In this document: positions 100-4,760 of the stretch, in pieces
Layout of the letters: every line of letters begins with the position of its first letter
How positions within the stretch are numbered: position 1 is the stretch's first letter
Origin: an uncultured Alphaproteobacteria bacterium
GTDB taxonomy: Bacteria > Pseudomonadota > Alphaproteobacteria > HIMB59 > GCA-002718135
Direction: 5' to 3'
Length of the DNA: 64,000 nucleotides
NCBI GenBank assembly: GCA_902530685.1
Contig: CACAAZ010000002.1
Coordinates: 2,103 to 66,102, forward strand
Translations under genes and position numbers: made by a program
Notes under the pieces: generated by a model
The model's input: the letters and a program-made list of their open reading frames with translations, nothing else
What the model was told of the DNA's origin: nothing
The model's database searches: none

Positions 100-603
100 T
101 TATTGGCAAGTACCTATTGATCCTAATGAGCATTTTTTACCATCAATCCAAATAGCATTTGATAAGTTTGCTTCATCAAAAATTGCACCTGAAATGTTCG
201 CACCAAGTAGATTTGCCTCATACAAATTTGCACCCTTAAAAGTTGCTCCAAACAGATTTGAGCCTTCAAAGTTTACTTTAGCTAGATTTGCATTGTCAAA
301 ATTAGCATTGTTACAATTTGCACCTTGTAAATTTGAAGCATATAAATTTGAATTATTAAAATTTGAGAAGATAAAATTACCAATTGATAGATTTGCATTA
401 TTAAGCTGAGATTTTTCAAAATTAGATAAAGATAAGTTAACTCCAGACATTTGAGAATTAGCCAAACCTGTACCAGAAAGATCGAGATTTTCTACAAAAT
501 TACAATTAGTCCAATCAACCTCATTTGCTGGTTGATCACTACATGCAGCAAATAAAGAATATGAGCTAAATAAACTTAAGGCGAATAAAATTAAATATCT
601 CAT
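100..603 (-). CDS. secreted pentapeptide-repeat protein
   Basis: Signal-peptide-like N-terminus (MRYLILFALSLFSSYSLFAA), then more than 20 tandem A(D/N)LxX-type pentapeptides (e.g. ANLYEANLLGANISGAIFDEANLSNA). Confidence 0.85.
   Translation of the reverse strand: MRYLILFALSLFSSYSLFAACSDQPANEVDWTNCNFVENLDLSGTGLANSQMSGVNLSLSNFEKSQLNNANLSIGNFIFSNFNNSNLYASNLQGANCNNANFDNANLAKVNFEGSNLFGATFKGANLYEANLLGANISGAIFDEANLSNAIWIDGKKCSLGSIGTCQ
148..501 (-). repeat. 15-nt periodic coding repeat underlying the pentapeptide repeats
   Basis: Units of the type aaatttgcacc / agatttgc recur every 15 nt; the antisense shadow ORF 194..409 reads as KFAP-like repeats for the same reason. Confidence 0.8.
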
Positions 604-644: not shown

Positions 645-2411
645 TTAGCGTGAAGTGAGTTTTAATTCAATCCTTCTATTTTGCTGCAGATCACTCTCAG
701 TTTCTCCATCACTTATAGGATAAAATTCTCCATATCCTGCAGATGCTAATCTATTTGGTGGAAAACCAAGATCAAGAAGAAGTTTTAAAACTGTATTAGC
801 TCTAGCTGAAGATAATTCCCAGTTAGAAGGATATCTAATTGTTTGTATGGGTTTTTTATCAGTGTGTCCTTCTACCATGATAATCCAGTCAATATCTGAG
901 GGAATATCATTAGTAGTCTCTTTTAAAGTAAGGCCAATTTCACTTAACTTTTCTTTGCCAGATAGTTGTAAATCTGCTGAAGCAGAATCAAATAATAGTT
1001 CTGATTCAAAAATGAATCTATCTCCTACAATTTTAATGTCTTTTCTATCACCTAAAATAGATTGTAATTTTCCAAAAAACTCAGATCTATATTTTTGGAG
1101 TTCAAATACTTTTGATGTAAGGGCTTTGTTTAACTTTTCACCTAGCACCTCTATTTCTAAATCTTTAATCAAAGCCTGGCTTTCACTTGCTTCTAAAGCA
1201 TCATTAAGTAAAGCTATTTCTTTTTGTAAAGCATCAATTTGATTAGAGAGAATTTCTACCTGTTCTAATGTTTTTGAAGCTTGTATTTCCATATTTTTAA
1301 TTTCTTCAAGTGATGTTTCTTTTTGTATTTGATTTTCTTGTTCTAATGAAAAAATTTGACTTTGAAGTAACTCAAGTTTTTCTAGTTGTTGTTTTTGTTT
1401 ATCTTCTGACAAAGAAAGAACATTATTTAGTTCAGATATTTTTCCTCGCAAATTAAAAATTGTACTATCTTTCTGAATTAAATCTTTATTTAATCTTGCT
1501 AATTCTTCATTTTTAAACCTAATTGCATCAAGTTGTTCATTAAGTGATGCATCTTTTAAACCTAGACTATCATTAATCTCTAAAAGATCATTCATAAGTT
1601 CTTGATATTGAGATATTTGACTTTGTAGTTCTTCATCTCTCAATGATAGTTCAATGTTAGTTTTTTCTAATTCATCATTTAAGCTTAGAAGCTTTTCATT
1701 TTTATTTTTAATTGCAAGTAACTGCTCTTCAATTCCTCCATCCTCTAAACCCAGACTTTCGTTAATGGCCATTAAATTTTCATTTTTCTTATTTAATTCT
1801 GCTATTGTAGATTCGAGAGATTTTTCACTTTCAAGTAGTCTAAAATTAGCATTATCTAATTCTTGATTAAGTATTTTTAGTTGATCAATTCTTGTTGCAA
1901 GTGCTTTATTGATTCGTTCTCCGAGCCCCTCAGTTTCAAGTAAAGTAATTTCTTGTTCTTCATAAGTTTCTAATGCATTTGCAACTATTCTCAGTTCTTT
2001 TAAAAGACTACTAATTTGCTCGGATAAAGCTATTATATTTTGTTCCTGAACAAATATTTCTGATCGTTTTTTTGCAACATCAGTTTGTAATTGCTCACTT
2101 AATAATTGCTCACTTTGTAAATTTAATTCTGTATCTTCAAGCTTTTTCTCTGTTTCAGAAAGAGTTGAAAGAGCTTCTTCTTTATCTTTAGTTTCAATAA
2201 CAAGTATTTTAGATAATTCATTTATTTGTGTTCTTAAATCTTGAAGCGCCTTATCTCGGCCAGATATAGCATCACTCAGATAGATTTGCGAAACAGTAAA
2301 AACCATTAGCACAAATATGATTACTATTAAAAGAGTAGCTAGAACATCAACAAAACCCGGCCAAATATTTGTTGTATCAGCAAGTCTATTTCTTAAAGAC
2401 CTAGTAGACAT
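645..2411 (-). CDS. MotB/OmpA-family peptidoglycan-binding protein with ~400-aa coiled-coil spacer
   Basis: N-terminal TM helix with conserved Asp (IWPGFVDVLATLLIVIIF, as in MotB/TolR/ExbD). Residues ~50-445 are heptad-like and E/Q/L/K-rich. C-terminal OmpA/MotB domain (GHTDKKPI...SNWELSSARANTV...NRRIELKL). Confidence 0.8.
   Translation of the reverse strand: MSTRSLRNRLADTTNIWPGFVDVLATLLIVIIFVLMVFTVSQIYLSDAISGRDKALQDLRTQINELSKILVIETKDKEEALSTLSETEKKLEDTELNLQSEQLLSEQLQTDVAKKRSEIFVQEQNIIALSEQISSLLKELRIVANALETYEEQEITLLETEGLGERINKALATRIDQLKILNQELDNANFRLLESEKSLESTIAELNKKNENLMAINESLGLEDGGIEEQLLAIKNKNEKLLSLNDELEKTNIELSLRDEELQSQISQYQELMNDLLEINDSLGLKDASLNEQLDAIRFKNEELARLNKDLIQKDSTIFNLRGKISELNNVLSLSEDKQKQQLEKLELLQSQIFSLEQENQIQKETSLEEIKNMEIQASKTLEQVEILSNQIDALQKEIALLNDALEASESQALIKDLEIEVLGEKLNKALTSKVFELQKYRSEFFGKLQSILGDRKDIKIVGDRFIFESELLFDSASADLQLSGKEKLSEIGLTLKETTNDIPSDIDWIIMVEGHTDKKPIQTIRYPSNWELSSARANTVLKLLLDLGFPPNRLASAGYGEFYPISDGETESDLQQNRRIELKLTSR
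1482..1775 (-). repeat. internal tandem duplication (62-aa period) inside the coiled coil
   Basis: LMAINESLGLEDGGIEEQLLAIKNKNEKLLSLNDEL (res ~213-248) versus LLEINDSLGLKDASLNEQLDAIRFKNEELARLNKDL (res ~275-310). Confidence 0.7.
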
Positions 2412-2413
2412 TA

Positions 2414-3439
2414 TTATTTTTTAATTTTCTTTAGTTCTTTTTCAATTTTCTGAAAATATTCTTTAACTTTTTTTGCTTCTAATATTCCATTTTTGCTTAA
2501 AGCTTCTGTAAGGTTCATTAGTATAGATTGTGTGTTTAATTGTGAAGATAAGAAATTTGATAATTGTTTATCAAGACTTGAAGAGTTGGAATTAATTTTG
2601 TTAAGTATTTCATTAAACTTCTCTAAATTATTTGAAATTTTAGTTTGATTGTCAGATGATTTTTTAAAAGCATTTAGGAGGTTTTCTAAGTTATCATAGA
2701 TTTTTTGAATTGCTTCACCCGTAGGCTTATCTTCTACTTTAGAAAAATCTGGAGAAGAATTGCTATTAAGGATTTTTTCAAAGTATTGACTAAATTTATT
2801 TTGAGCTTGTCCAAGATTTAAATCAAGTAATCCTAATATTAAAGAGCCAGCTAAACCTAATAAAGAACTGCTGAATGCAATACTCATTCCTTCTAGTGGA
2901 GCATTTAATCCATCTTTAAGAGAATTAAAAAAACCGGCAACATTTGTATCATCTATGCCTAGGCCGCTGATAACATTGCCAACAGATCCAATGGTTTTTA
3001 GAAGTCCCCAGAAAGTTCCTAGAAGTCCTAAAAAGACTAGCAAGCCTACCAGGTAACGAGAAGTTTCTCTTATGCTTATCAAAGTCATATCAGAATTCTC
3101 TATCAATCTATTTATTGATGAACTTTTAAAAACAAATTTTCCGTCAAGATTTTTTAATTCAAGAGAAATATTTTTGTCTTGCCCTCTTAAATTAGAGAAT
3201 GCTTCTATAGAATTTGTAATATTAAAGTTCGAGAAAGATATATATTTATAATTCAAGTTAATGAGATGAAAAAAATTAAATATAATACCAATTACTAAAG
3301 CCAATAATATTATAATGTTAATGAAGATATTTGATAAAAAAGCATTTTGTAAAACTGGGTATAATAAAACAACAATAACAAATACTGCAACCAAGAATAT
3401 TGATCCTCTAATTATGTAATTATTTAAGGATAGTGCCAT
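2414..3439 (-). CDS. MotA/TolQ/ExbB proton-channel family protein with coiled-coil C-terminal tail
   Basis: Two N-terminal TM helices, then family-typical helices LGLLGTFWGLLKTIG and EGMSIAFSSSLLGLAGSLILGLL. ~110-aa K/E/N/S-rich tail. 2-nt gap to the MotB-like gene. Confidence 0.7.
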   Translation of the reverse strand: MALSLNNYIIRGSIFLVAVFVIVVLLYPVLQNAFLSNIFINIIILLALVIGIIFNFFHLINLNYKYISFSNFNITNSIEAFSNLRGQDKNISLELKNLDGKFVFKSSSINRLIENSDMTLISIRETSRYLVGLLVFLGLLGTFWGLLKTIGSVGNVISGLGIDDTNVAGFFNSLKDGLNAPLEGMSIAFSSSLLGLAGSLILGLLDLNLGQAQNKFSQYFEKILNSNSSPDFSKVEDKPTGEAIQKIYDNLENLLNAFKKSSDNQTKISNNLEKFNEILNKINSNSSSLDKQLSNFLSSQLNTQSILMNLTEALSKNGILEAKKVKEYFQKIEKELKKIKK

Positions 3440-3489: not shown

Positions 3490-4674
3490 TTAGTTGTATA
3501 TATAATTTCTTGTGAGAGGCAGATTGTTAATATTCTTTGCTATTTGTATTTGAAAAACAACATTACCCATATTTACAAAGGAATACTTACTTGCCAATAG
3601 ATAAAACTCCCACATTCTAAAGAAGCGTTGATCAAACATCTTTATAATTTTATCTTTATTTTCGATAACATTTTGATACCACTTTGAAAGAGTGTGAGCA
3701 TAATGTAGTCTTAAAACCTCAACATCTGTTACATTTATATTAAGTTTTTGTGTTTCATTCATTACTTCAGATAATGATGGAATATAACCACCAGGGAAAA
3801 TATATTTTCTTATCCAAGGACTAGTAGCTGTTGGTTTACCCCTTTGACCAATAGTATGCAAAAGAAAAACACCATTTTCTTTCAGAATATCATTCGCTTT
3901 ACTTAAATAAGTTTTGAAGTATTTAACACCAACATGCTCGAACATTCCAACTGATACTATACGATCATATTTTTCAGTTTCATTTCTATAATCTTGTAAT
4001 GCAAATGAAACTTTATCACTTAAACCTTCTTTTTGTACGCGTTCAGATGCAGTTTTAAATTGATTTTCTGAAAGTGTAATTCCTTTAACTTTGGCGCCAG
4101 TAGATTTGGCTATTTCAATTGCCATTCCTCCCCAACCACACCCAATATCAAGAACATCCATATTTTCTGTAATTTGAAGTTTTTTAATTATGTGTTCTTT
4201 TTTATCTTTCTGTGCTTGATCTAAACTCATATTTGGATTGTGAAAATATGCACAAGAATATTGCATATCCTGATCAAGAAATAATTTATATAAATCTTCA
4301 TTTATATCGTAGTGGTGTGCTACATTTTTTTTTGAATTTACAAGCTGATTAATCTGCTGAAATGGCATAAAAATAGAAGATAAATATTCGTAAAATTTAT
4401 AAAACTTATTGTTAGAAATAAAGTCATCGTAACAATTAGTTATTAAATTAAGAAAGTCTTCTATAGTGCCTTTTTCAATAACTAACTCCTCATTCATATA
4501 TGCTTCACCTATATGAAGATTAGGGTTTAAGAATAGTTTTCTTTCAATAGATTTGTTTTTTAATCTTATACAAACGTGTGGATTTGAATTTCCAAATTTA
4601 TAAATCTTGTCATTAGAATCTATGATTTCTAATGTTCCATCAATGTTAAGTTTTTTCAATACACTAAATAACAT
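3490..4674 (-). CDS. cfa: cyclopropane-fatty-acyl-phospholipid synthase family SAM methyltransferase
   Basis: HYDINEDLYKLFLDQDMQYSCAYF and SAM motif VLDIGCGWGGMAIEIA; C-terminal FRMWEFYL typical of the CFA/mycolic-acid synthase family. Confidence 0.85.
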   Translation of the reverse strand: MLFSVLKKLNIDGTLEIIDSNDKIYKFGNSNPHVCIRLKNKSIERKLFLNPNLHIGEAYMNEELVIEKGTIEDFLNLITNCYDDFISNNKFYKFYEYLSSIFMPFQQINQLVNSKKNVAHHYDINEDLYKLFLDQDMQYSCAYFHNPNMSLDQAQKDKKEHIIKKLQITENMDVLDIGCGWGGMAIEIAKSTGAKVKGITLSENQFKTASERVQKEGLSDKVSFALQDYRNETEKYDRIVSVGMFEHVGVKYFKTYLSKANDILKENGVFLLHTIGQRGKPTATSPWIRKYIFPGGYIPSLSEVMNETQKLNINVTDVEVLRLHYAHTLSKWYQNVIENKDKIIKMFDQRFFRMWEFYLLASKYSFVNMGNVVFQIQIAKNINNLPLTRNYIYN

Positions 4675-4760
4675 GTTTTTTTATTTTAAGAAAAACGTCA
4701 CTTATGTCAATAACTCTAAATTATTAACATTTGATGAGAAAATAATTTGTAGAGATTGAC

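What the first reader, a model, noticed from the sequence alone, without database searches (positions are those of the whole stretch)
645..3439. Orphan stator-like MotA/MotB pair in which the PG-anchored subunit carries a ~400-residue coiled coil
Seen: 2414..3439 has the MotA/TolQ/ExbB channel helices (LGLLGTFWGLL; SIAFSSSLLGLAGSLILGLL) plus a ~110-aa coiled-coil tail. Two nt downstream, 645..2411 has a MotB/TolR-type TM helix with the conserved Asp (FVDVLATLLIVIIF). It then has ~395 residues of heptad-rich sequence and a C-terminal OmpA/MotB peptidoglycan-binding domain. No flagellar, Tol-Pal, TonB or gliding genes are in the window. Established: 5:2 MotAB/ExbBD/TolQR-type units convert ion-motive force into rotation or force. 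Inference: as one continuous helix at 0.15 nm per residue, the spacer would be ~59 nm long. That is longer than a typical periplasm, so it must fold back, lie along the wall, or span to something else. The architecture is the inverse of Zorya ZorA/ZorB, where the long tail is on the MotA-like subunit. I know of no assigned function for this arrangement. It may be an envelope-associated motor or tether in a non-flagellated, streamlined cell.
Basis: partly seen in the sequence, partly recalled or inferred. Interest (0 to 1): 0.6.

Follow-up and report, generated by a model that had tools for sequence, protein, structure and literature searches.

The report
Wall-anchored ion motor, heptad-quantised rod
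Two adjacent genes in this SAR11-type marine bacterium encode what looks like a small ion-driven membrane motor, tied to the cell wall by a roughly 60 nm rigid protein rod. The pair belongs to a widespread gene family of Alphaproteobacteria that is catalogued in databases but has no published function.

Summary
A (2414-3439, minus strand, 341 aa) is a 4-TM MotA/ExbB/ZorA-type channel subunit. B (645-2411, minus strand, 588 aa) has a MotB-type TM helix with an Asp, a proline-free coiled coil of about 410 residues, and a canonical OmpA-like wall-binding domain.

The pair is not an orphan. B passes the NCBIfam PRK09039 model (NF006543). That model is over cut-off in 158 of 251 sampled alphaproteobacterial genomes, and the A gene sits directly upstream.

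The closest known relative is the ZorAB core of Zorya. However, there are no Zorya effectors, the A tail is short, and the long element is on B.

SAR11 genomes have no FliG, TonB or TonB-dependent receptors, and they carry a separate TolQR.

The main new result concerns rod length. The spacing between the Asp motif and the wall-domain motif is 4 mod 7 in 67 of 84 diverse relatives, in 4 of 4 giant relatives (up to about 950 rod residues), and in all 101 SAR11 sequences. SAR11 variants differ by 1, 2 or 3 copies of a 28-residue repeat. The rod is therefore one continuous coiled coil, not a folded-back bundle.

The function remains unknown; a housekeeping role in the envelope is inferred. This scan has reported the same family many times on other DNA.

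The parts
2414..3439 (-). Gene A: a 341-aa ZorA/MotA/ExbB-type channel subunit, presumed to form the pentameric ring.
   Evidence: ORF. PADLOC ZorA3 and ZorA1 models match at E = 9e-13 to 7e-11 over the TM core. The AF2 model has pLDDT 88. The top Foldseek matches are ZorA 8qyk, 8vvn and 8qyd, followed by ExbB, TolQ and PomA/MotA.
3272..3406 (-). A TM1 (aa 12-30) and TM2 (aa 38-56), joined by a 7-residue uncharged loop.
   Evidence: Hydropathy and loop charges. N37, N41 and G51 are conserved in alignment A1.
3062..3262 (-). A membrane-proximal cytoplasmic domain (aa 60-126), made of short helices and a beta-hairpin (aa 95-104).
   Evidence: AF2 secondary structure. The domain carries 8 Lys/Arg, so it is cytoplasmic. 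The same helix plus beta-hairpin layout is described for the cytoplasmic domain of ZorA.
2825..3055 (-). A channel helices TM3 (aa 129-147, with invariant T142) and TM4 (aa 187-205, with S190 and S192), plus the periplasmic loop containing invariant P181.
   Evidence: Invariant columns G138, L139, G141, T142, F143, G145, L146, P181, M185, F189, S192, G195 and L196 across 70 family members. These residues correspond to the ZorA Thr147/Ser184 selectivity filter.
2420..2719 (-). A cytoplasmic helical tail (aa 241-340). It lacks the C-terminal motif that about half of the family members carry.
   Evidence: AF2 helices 241-320 and 322-340. Alignment A1 shows the family consensus continuing beyond the end of the SAR11 protein. 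The motif was found in 111 of 224 sequences and not in the window protein.
645..2411 (-). Gene B: a 588-aa PRK09039-family peptidoglycan-binding protein, presumed to form the dimeric axle.
   Evidence: NF006543 scores 356.4 bits against a cut-off of 305. PADLOC ZorB3 matches at E = 1.2e-22. The AF2 model has pLDDT 78.
2298..2354 (-). B TM helix (aa 20-38), with the invariant Asp D22 at codon 2346-2348.
   Evidence: W17, V21, D22 and F33 are invariant in 44 sequences from alpha-, beta-, gamma- and deltaproteobacterial and Binatia records. Hydropathy; codon.
1047..2276 (-). B periplasmic coiled-coil rod (aa 46-455, about 410 residues, roughly 60 nm if straight).
   Evidence: No Pro. One a/d register runs throughout. 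AF2 predicts it as all-helical with three short Gly-containing breaks. Its length is in phase with the family rule of 4 mod 7.
1617..1700 (-). One copy of a 28-residue (four-heptad) repeat unit, aa 238-265. Sister strains have 2 or 3 copies.
   Evidence: Alignment A3 of the 588-, 616- and 644-aa variants. Lengths come and coordinates.
1857..2042 (-). Internal duplicate (aa 124-185) of the family-conserved distal coil segment (aa 383-445, nt 1077-1265).
   Evidence: Local alignment score 101, z = 11.4 against shuffles.
1443..1811 (-). Internal duplication of about 60 residues: aa 201-259 and aa 264-323.
   Evidence: Local alignment score 104, z = 12.3 against shuffles.
648..1037 (-). B OmpA-like peptidoglycan-binding domain (aa 459-588), with the canonical GHTD, N..LS..RA and NRRIE motifs.
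   Evidence: PF00691 at E = 1.8e-15. G515, H516, D518, N530, L533, S534, R537, N578, R579, R580 and E582 are invariant. The nearest solved domains are MotS 9ljk and MotB 6ysf.
100..603 (-). Neighbouring gene: an exported pentapeptide-repeat protein with a probable lipoprotein signal. It is a SAR11-specific neighbour and not part of the family module.
   Evidence: PF00805 at E = 3.6e-21. It is found downstream of B only in the four SAR11-type loci among 80.

Best explanation
The two genes encode the SAR11 version of a conserved, mainly alphaproteobacterial, non-flagellar member of the MotAB/ExbBD/TolQR/ZorAB class of ion-driven membrane motors.

Shown:
- A is a 4-TM channel subunit whose core is most like ZorA. 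Its polar filter residues (T142, S190/S192) are conserved.
- B has a single TM helix with an invariant Asp.
- B continues as one uninterrupted coiled coil whose length is quantised in whole heptads across the family.
- B ends in a canonical OmpA-type peptidoglycan-binding domain.
- The pair is a tightly coupled two-gene unit in the core genome, separate from TolQR.

Inferred:
- Five A subunits surround a B dimer.
- Ion flow through the Asp site makes the A ring turn relative to B2, which is held by the wall.
- The two B chains form a parallel two-stranded rod of about 60 nm in this strain (about 65 and 69 nm in sister strains). The rod acts as a long stator arm, tether or torsion element running obliquely or along the inner face of the wall.
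- The output is either the short cytoplasmic tail of A or tension on the wall.
- The job is housekeeping maintenance or sensing of the envelope rather than motility, uptake or phage defence.
For: Family membership:
- NF006543 scores 356 bits, above its cut-off of 305.
- The model is over cut-off in 158 of 251 class-level genomes.
- A is adjacent to B in 20 of 20 loci and in about 72 of 80 loci.
- Public records name the proteins 'peptidoglycan-binding protein' and 'flagellar motor protein MotA' or 'MotA/TolQ/ExbB proton channel family protein'.

Motor core:
- D22 is invariant in B.
- T142, S192 and P181 are invariant in A.
- All 70 family members hit a ZorA model at E <= 1e-5, and 54 of 70 hit PF01618 at E <= 0.01.
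- Foldseek ranks ZorA first, then ExbB, TolQ and PomA/MotA.

Wall anchor: the OmpA motifs are invariant.

Continuous rod:
- The spacing between the two motifs is 4 mod 7 in 67 of 84 relatives (chi-square p = 7e-62) and in all 101 SAR11 sequences.
- It is also 4 mod 7 in 4 of 4 additional long homologues, with d = 333, 487, 613 and 984.
- By distinct lengths, 27 of 40 are in phase, where about 6 would be expected by chance.
- The A tail serves as a control and shows no such phase.
- SAR11 variants differ by a 28-residue copy number at a single site.
- One a/d register runs across all three AF2 'breaks'.

Not another known system:
- SAR11 genomes have no FliG, TonB_C or TonB-dependent receptors, and they carry a separate TolQ/TolR/Pal.
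- No Zorya effectors lie nearby.

Housekeeping role:
- In other Alphaproteobacteria the flanking genes are core genes: inositol monophosphatase, ThiE, L31 and aldolase.
- The pair is retained in many genomes of about 1 Mb.
Against: - There are no experimental data for any member, and no paper was found in six literature searches.
- Stoichiometry, rotation and the coupling ion were not tested.
- The Pfam MotA_ExbB score of the window protein is below threshold.
- The AF2 monomer model of B breaks the helix at aa 153-162, 220-225 and 283-290 and has a pTM of only 0.35, so kinks or hinges cannot be excluded.
- Every rod in the family, from 18 nm to about 140 nm, is longer than the roughly 9 nm gap between inner membrane and wall quoted for E. 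coli. The geometry is therefore unexplained.
- A long two-stranded coil is torsionally soft, which is awkward for a stator arm.
- The SAR11 A protein lacks the conserved C-terminal tail motif.
- About a fifth of sampled Alphaproteobacteria, including the Caulobacter control genome, show no match, so the function is dispensable in some lineages.
Confidence: 0.6

Rival explanations
1. The rod is not extended. The helices fold back on each other at the Gly-containing motifs, forming an antiparallel bundle, so the wall-binding domain sits within about 10-20 nm of the membrane as in MotB or ZorB.
For: The AF2 monomer model splits the rod into helices 19-152, 163-219, 226-282 and 291-453, and two of these are equal 57-residue segments. 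The straight rod is several times longer than a typical gap between inner membrane and wall.
Against: Sister strains add 28 or 56 residues inside only one of the two '57-residue' helices, which would unbalance a hairpin. One hydrophobic register continues across all three breaks. Across the family the length changes in whole heptads over a range of 122 to about 950 residues. The shortest members have no room for a hairpin. Monomer AF2 models of dimeric coiled coils commonly introduce artificial breaks.
Confidence: 0.12
2. The pair is a passive structural tether or spacer between the inner membrane and the wall. The channel-like core is an evolutionary relic used only for assembly, with no ion-driven movement.
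For: No partner that would receive torque is known. The rod length varies widely, as expected for a spacer. As far as I know, SAR11 has an unusually large periplasm, which would suit a long spacer.
Against: The Asp of B and the Thr/Ser/Pro/Gly residues of the A channel helices are invariant over very divergent lineages. A relic would not be expected to keep them. A 5:2-type ring is an expensive way to anchor a rod.
Confidence: 0.12
3. It is a Zorya-like anti-phage sensor whose effector genes lie elsewhere in the genome or have not been recognised.
For: ZorA models are the best sequence and fold matches for A. ZorB3 matches B. Longer-tailed ZorA-like paralogues sit next to ATPase genes in some Alphaproteobacteria.
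Against: No ZorC, D, E, F or G matches were found among the neighbours. The A tail is about 100 residues, against roughly 500 in ZorA. Presence is near-universal, the gene is single-copy, and it sits in a syntenic core-genome position in most Alphaproteobacteria. That is unlike the patchy distribution of defence islands. ZorB has no linker, whereas B has a long rod.
Confidence: 0.06
4. It is a diverged paralogue working inside a known system: an extra Tol-Pal, Ton or flagellar stator unit.
For: Public records label the proteins MotA, MotB or biopolymer transport protein. In two Chiayiivirga records a TonB-dependent receptor lies directly upstream.
Against: SAR11 genomes with the pair have no FliG, no TonB_C and no TonB-dependent receptors, and they keep a complete separate TolQ/TolR/Pal. 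All MotA, MotB and ExbB family models score far below their cut-offs. B has an OmpA domain rather than an ExbD/TolR domain.
Confidence: 0.04

Closest known systems
ZorA-ZorB core of the Zorya anti-phage system (cryo-EM 8qyd, 8qyk, 8vvn; PMC11946911)
   Same: It gives the best sequence-profile and fold matches for A. The shared features are the channel helices with a Thr/Ser filter facing an essential Asp on the partner, a membrane-proximal cytoplasmic domain with a beta-hairpin, a C-terminal helical tail on A, and a B subunit with one TM helix and an OmpA-type wall-binding domain.
   Different: The A tail is about 100 residues, not about 500. A has four predicted TM helices, whereas ZorA has three. 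The ZorB wall domain is fused to its TM helix without a linker, while here a coiled coil of 122 to about 950 residues intervenes. No ZorC/D/E/F/G effectors are present. The context is core-genome, single-copy and largely syntenic rather than a defence island.
NCBIfam PRK09039 set (NF006542 to NF006546), 'peptidoglycan-binding protein', with the adjacent gene annotated MotA or MotA/TolQ/ExbB family
   Same: B passes the NF006543 cut-off. The gene order, the invariant Asp and the OmpA motifs are shared. This is the family to which the window pair belongs.
   Different: Typical members are about 340-390 aa with rods of about 150-200 residues. The SAR11 protein has about 410 rod residues, gained by internal duplications. 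Its A subunit lacks the usual C-terminal motif. The upstream third gene found in about half of the loci is missing. The family has a name but no assigned function.
Flagellar stator MotAB / PomAB
   Same: A has four TM helices. B has a TM Asp, a helical segment and an OmpA-like domain whose nearest solved relatives are MotS and MotB.
   Different: SAR11 has no flagellar genes. The MotA and MotB equivalog models score 14-100 bits against cut-offs of 250-300. There is no large cytoplasmic torque-generating domain. The linker is a long coiled coil rather than a plug plus a flexible linker.
TolQ-TolR-TolA-Pal
   Same: It is a proton-driven 5:2-type unit that acts on the wall and outer-membrane layer through a long helical periplasmic element (TolA domain II) and an OmpA-like wall binder (Pal). 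B resembles a fusion of the TolR TM helix, a TolA-like rod and a Pal-like domain.
   Different: A genuine TolQ/TolR/Pal set exists elsewhere in the genome. B has no ExbD/TolR periplasmic domain. No TolA- or TolB-like partners are linked to the pair.

Membership tests
5:2 ion-driven motor superfamily (MotAB / ExbBD / TolQR / ZorAB) | The A subunit has two channel-lining TM helices with conserved Gly/Thr/Ser/Pro residues. | tested here: met
   G138, L139, G141, T142, F143, G145, L146, P181, F189, S192, G195 and L196 are invariant in 70 sequences. Foldseek matches ZorA, ExbB, TolQ, PomA and MotA chains with probability up to 1.0.
5:2 ion-driven motor superfamily (MotAB / ExbBD / TolQR / ZorAB) | The B subunit has a single N-terminal TM helix carrying the universally conserved Asp. 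| tested here: met
   D22 is invariant in 44 sequences from several classes. One hydrophobic segment lies at aa 20-38.
5:2 ion-driven motor superfamily (MotAB / ExbBD / TolQR / ZorAB) | Pfam MotA_ExbB (PF01618) at or above the gathering score. | tested here: not met
   The window protein scores 15.4 bits against a cut-off of 22.9. 54 of 70 relatives match at E <= 0.01, with a best E of only 3.6e-6.
5:2 ion-driven motor superfamily (MotAB / ExbBD / TolQR / ZorAB) | A5B2 stoichiometry and ion-driven rotation. | not testable with these tools
   Only single-chain structure prediction was available, and there are no experimental data.
Zorya (types I-III) | ZorAB is encoded together with effectors (ZorC+ZorD, ZorE, or ZorF+ZorG). 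| tested here: not met
   A PADLOC scan of six neighbouring proteins found no Zor effector. The neighbours in relatives are housekeeping genes.
Zorya (types I-III) | A long ZorA cytoplasmic tail (about 70 nm, several hundred residues). | tested here: not met
   The tail helix spans aa 241-340 only. Tail length across the family is narrowly distributed and short. The ZorA tail is described.
Zorya (types I-III) | The ZorB wall-binding domain is fused to the TM helix without a linker. | tested here: not met
   About 410 coiled-coil residues separate the TM helix from the OmpA domain. The ZorB arrangement is described.
Flagellar stator MotAB/PomAB | The genome encodes a flagellar rotor (FliG), and the proteins pass the MotA/MotB equivalog models. 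| tested here: not met
   No FliG_C in G000, G209 (96% complete) or G030 (99% complete). MotA1 scores 14 bits against a cut-off of 304, and the MotB/MotS/MotD models score 34-100 bits against cut-offs of 250-300.
ExbBD-TonB / TolQR | The B subunit has an ExbD/TolR periplasmic domain, and TonB/TolA partners and their clients are present. | tested here: not met
   PF02472 hits only the TolR gene on contig C20. No TonB_C and no TonB-dependent receptors were found. A separate TolQ and Pal are present.
NCBIfam PRK09039 (NF006543) peptidoglycan-binding protein | The whole-protein score is at or above the curated cut-off. | tested here: met
   356.4 bits against a cut-off of 305, in two stretches: the N-terminal region and aa 298-588.
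NCBIfam PRK09039 (NF006543) peptidoglycan-binding protein | A ZorA-like A gene lies immediately upstream on the same strand. | tested here: met
   The gap is 2 nt in the window. The arrangement is seen in 20 of 20 loci and about 72 of 80 loci.

The most novel reading that the evidence does not exclude
The family may be a housekeeping, proton-driven periplasmic machine in which the heptad-quantised B2 coiled coil carries the mechanical load. The rod could work as a ruler, a leash or a torsion spring that couples rotation of the A ring to the peptidoglycan at a set distance of 18 to about 140 nm from the motor. That would let the cell sense or adjust the spacing or tension between membrane and wall. 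It could also be the ancestral module from which Zorya's envelope-sensing ZorAB was recruited. In SAR11, the enlarged periplasm is recalled from a cryo-tomography study that I could not open here. There, the lengthened rod and its 28-residue copy-number polymorphism would tune this distance.
Probability: 0.25. Interest if true: 0.8.

Novelty: new variant of a known kind. Interest (0 to 1): 0.55.

Why it matters
Only a handful of jobs are known for the 5:2 ion-driven motors: flagellar rotation, Ton uptake, Tol-Pal envelope maintenance, gliding and type IX secretion, and Zorya defence.

This family would be a further branch that is very widespread. It is present in most sampled Alphaproteobacteria. 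In SAR11, one of the most abundant organisms on Earth, it is one of only two such motors kept; the other is TolQR.

The architecture is distinctive. The long helical element sits on the wall-binding subunit, and its length is strictly quantised in heptads over an eight-fold range. That gives a simple, testable structural rule. It also suggests that rod length is a tuned parameter of the cell envelope.

Public records label the proteins as flagellar MotA or chemotaxis MotB. This is misleading for non-motile organisms and for metagenomic inference of motility.

Tried and rejected
Literature: six full-text searches found no paper on this family. The search terms covered PRK09039; MotA/ExbB/ZorA/GldL/AglR phylogeny; Pelagibacter with MotA/MotB; ZorA/ZorB with Alphaproteobacteria; names of the 'ZorAB-like' or 'MotAB-like' type; and annotation phrases combined with Tn-seq.
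- The mBio 2025 survey of stator relatives (PMC12505986) groups non-flagellar homologues only broadly.
- The Sinorhizobium Rgs/Tol-Pal paper does not mention MotA, MotB, ExbB or OmpA at all.
- The SAR11 cryo-tomography paper could not be opened by DOI, so periplasm size is quoted from memory only.

Searches against solved structures:
- The single A sequence gave only chance coiled-coil hits.
- The A1 profile was swamped by coiled-coil proteins, and ZorA 8vvn appeared only at E = 0.055.

A tail: I tested whether the A tail is also length-quantised. It is not, so it serves as a negative control.

Neighbours: I looked for informative neighbours in non-alphaproteobacterial copies. The pair mostly stands alone between oppositely oriented genes.

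Paralogues: I followed weaker A-like hits in relatives. They are longer ZorA-like paralogues with different partners and not the same family.

My crude sliding coiled-coil score was too noisy. The phase-resolved profile replaced it.

One very long frame, G079 (L118), did not match my motif patterns and was left unresolved.

Full report
**What is in the window.** The window has about 29% G+C. The close matches are SAR11-type single-cell and metagenome assemblies. On the minus strand, ORF A (2414-3439, 341 aa) is followed after 2 nt by ORF B (645-2411, 588 aa).

A has four hydrophobic helices at aa 12-30, 38-56, 129-147 and 187-205. The loops at aa 31-37 and 152-182 are almost uncharged. The segment aa 60-126 carries 8 Lys/Arg. 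This gives an N-in, 4-TM topology with a cytoplasmic middle domain and a cytoplasmic C-terminal tail.

B has an Arg-rich N-terminus and one TM helix (aa 20-38) containing D22. About 410 residues follow with no proline, 18% Leu and 15% Glu. B ends in an OmpA domain (PF00691, E = 1.8e-15, aa 473-579).

**It is not an orphan.** B passes the NCBIfam model NF006543 (PRK09039.1-2, 'peptidoglycan-binding protein') with 356 bits against a cut-off of 305.
- In 251 genomes drawn evenly from the class, 198 match at E <= 1e-10 and 158 exceed the cut-off.
- In the 20 best loci the A homologue lies directly upstream of B in all 20.
- Among 80 named records from the genome collection, B directly follows A in about 72.
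- These records include Azospirillum, Nitrospirillum, Bradyrhizobium, Kordiimonas, Defluviicoccus, Acetobacteraceae and Holosporales. A few come from other classes: Thauera, Chiayiivirga, Desulfobacula and Binatia.
- A phylum-level sample found strong A matches in 65 alphaproteobacterial genomes and in 6 from other classes.
- An exhaustive search with A found 936 cluster representatives at E <= 1e-10.
- Public records call B 'peptidoglycan-binding protein' or 'chemotaxis protein MotB'. They call A 'flagellar motor protein MotA', 'MotA/TolQ/ExbB proton channel family protein', 'biopolymer transport protein' or 'hypothetical protein'.

**What kind of machine it is.** The residues that define the ion pathway of 5:2 motors are invariant.
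- In B, W17, V21, D22 and F33 are invariant across 44 sequences.
- In A, G138, L139, G141, T142, F143, G145, L146, P181, M185, F189, S192, G195 and L196 are invariant across 70 sequences.
- T142 and S190/S192 correspond to the ZorA Thr147/Ser184 filter that faces ZorB Asp26.

A scores below the Pfam MotA_ExbB threshold (15.4 versus 22.9 bits). It does hit PADLOC ZorA models at E = 9e-13. All 70 aligned relatives hit a ZorA1 model at E <= 1e-5, whereas 54 of 70 reach PF01618 at E <= 0.01.

The AF2 model of A (pLDDT 88) shows the two channel helices, a cytoplasmic domain with short helices and a beta-hairpin, and a 100-residue tail helix. Foldseek against the PDB ranks ZorA (8qyk, 8vvn, 8qyd) first, then ExbB, TolQ and PomA/MotA.

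The OmpA domain of B keeps every canonical wall-binding motif. Its nearest solved relatives are the MotS and MotB periplasmic domains.

**What it is not.**
- This assembly is only 56% complete, so I also searched a same-genus genome (96% complete) and a same-order genome (99% complete). None of the three has FliG, TonB_C or a TonB-dependent receptor.
- Each has exactly one bona fide TolQ with an adjacent TolR, plus this pair.
- No Zorya effector is near the pair, and the A tail is about a fifth of a ZorA tail.
- In other Alphaproteobacteria the flanking genes are core genes: inositol monophosphatase, ThiE, ribosomal protein L31, aldolase and an ABC exporter.
- The synteny of cfa, A, B and the pentapeptide gene seen here is confined to the four SAR11-type loci.

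**The rod.** I measured the distance d from the WPGFVD-type motif in the TM helix to the YRSEFF-type motif just before the OmpA domain.
- Among 84 non-redundant relatives outside SAR11, d ranges from 151 to 463 and is 4 mod 7 in 67 (chi-square p = 7e-62). A further 10 are 0 mod 7, which is the offset produced by a 3-residue insertion or a 4-residue deletion.
- All 101 distinct SAR11-type sequences have d = 424, 452, 480 or 473, and each of these is 4 mod 7.
- Four further long homologues fetched afterwards have d = 333, 487, 613 and 984, again all 4 mod 7. The last is a 1146-aa protein with about 950 proline-free rod residues.
- Counting distinct lengths rather than sequences, 27 of 40 are in phase, where about 6 would be expected. 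This reduces the concern that related sequences inflate the test.
- The equivalent measurement on the A tail shows no phase preference.

Within SAR11, the 588-, 616- and 644-aa forms are otherwise 95-98% identical. They differ by 1, 2 or 3 copies of one 28-residue unit, which lies at aa 238-265 here.

In the window protein, strong hydrophobic residues occupy positions 0 and 3 mod 7 from aa 46 to about aa 420. This includes the three places where the AF2 monomer model breaks the helix.

The extra length of the SAR11 rod arose by internal duplication. Residues 124-185 copy the family-conserved distal coil at 383-445 (z = 11.4). Residues 201-259 copy 264-323 (z = 12.3).

Taken together, these results indicate a single continuous coiled coil from the membrane to the wall-binding domain. 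They argue against a folded-back hairpin, because a one-sided insertion of 28 residues would unbalance a hairpin.

**Geometry.** At about 0.148 nm per residue, the rod is about 60 nm here, about 18-30 nm in typical relatives, and about 140 nm in the longest. All of these exceed the roughly 9 nm gap between inner membrane and wall quoted for E. coli.

As I recall from a cryo-tomography study, SAR11 has an unusually voluminous periplasm. I could not open that paper. This could accommodate a longer reach, but the 140 nm relatives show that perpendicular spanning cannot be the general rule. The rod must often run obliquely or along the wall, or act as a leash that lets the motor range around its anchor point. 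This part is inference.

**Mechanism proposed.** By analogy with solved 5:2 motors, five A subunits would surround the two B TM helices. Protonation cycles of D22 would drive the A ring around B2. B2 would be held by the wall through its parallel two-stranded rod. Output could be the pentameric A tail in the cytoplasm, or tension and torsion applied to the wall. Four observations point to a housekeeping envelope role: core-genome synteny, a single copy per genome, frequent retention in genomes of about 1 Mb, and the absence of effectors. The specific task is unknown.

**An accessory gene.** In 41 of 80 loci, including one gammaproteobacterial record, a third gene lies directly upstream of A. 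It encodes a signal peptide, a conserved short N-terminal motif, a Pro/Ala-rich spacer and a degenerate OmpA-like domain. It is absent from the SAR11 loci. This protein is a candidate periplasmic partner.

**Relation to earlier work in this scan.** Look-ups show that the same family has been reported many times on other genomes. Those reports gave the same classification: ZorAB-like, PRK09039, function unknown. Some noted length changes in 7-residue steps. I reached the family assignment independently before reading them. I then re-tested the heptad rule across the whole family with a control.

**Limits.** No multimer prediction, no expression data and no experimental literature were available. 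Stoichiometry, rotation, coupling ion, rod orientation and function are all inferred.

Noticed in passing
window 100-603 (minus strand): An exported pentapeptide-repeat protein with a lipoprotein-like signal (the sequence ends ...FAAC) lies 41 nt downstream of B. Among 80 loci that carry the A/B pair, it follows B only in the four SAR11-type loci.
   Followed up: partly
window 3490-4674 (minus strand) and 4683-4710: A cyclopropane-fatty-acyl-phospholipid synthase gene ends 50 nt upstream of A. It has the best promoter-like site of the region (11 of 12 matches) in front of it, and no terminator lies between it and A. The genes cfa, A, B and the pentapeptide gene may form one transcript. This gene order is conserved only in SAR11-type loci.
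   Followed up: partly
   Followed up: no
L058:5898-6908, L099:1938-2900 and 39 other loci: A third gene lies directly upstream of A in 41 of 80 loci. It encodes a cleavable signal peptide, a conserved V.VDLSV-type motif, a Pro/Ala-rich spacer and a degenerate OmpA-like domain in which the GHTD motif is replaced by AYAGG. It is absent from SAR11. It may be a periplasmic partner of the motor.
   Followed up: partly
L119:1615-5055: This B homologue is 1146 aa long, with about 950 proline-free rod residues (about 140 nm if straight). It is still in heptad phase (d = 984), and an A gene lies just upstream.
   Followed up: partly
L124:1762-7533, L125:5754-10914, L123:5765-8241: Some alphaproteobacterial genomes carry a second, longer A-like paralogue (525-630 aa, ZorA-model hits). 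In two cases it is followed by large genes with ABC/AriA-type ATPase matches. These may be uncharacterised defence modules related to Zorya and are distinct from the housekeeping pair.
   Followed up: partly
L098:86-1504 and L103:4111-6774: In two Chiayiivirga (Xanthomonadales) records a TonB-dependent receptor gene lies directly upstream of A on the same strand. This may be incidental.
   Followed up: no
L118 (G079:C1:805500-812500): The search reported a 1260-aa open frame matching NF006543 here, but my motif patterns did not find the TM or pre-OmpA motifs. It is unresolved.
   Followed up: no
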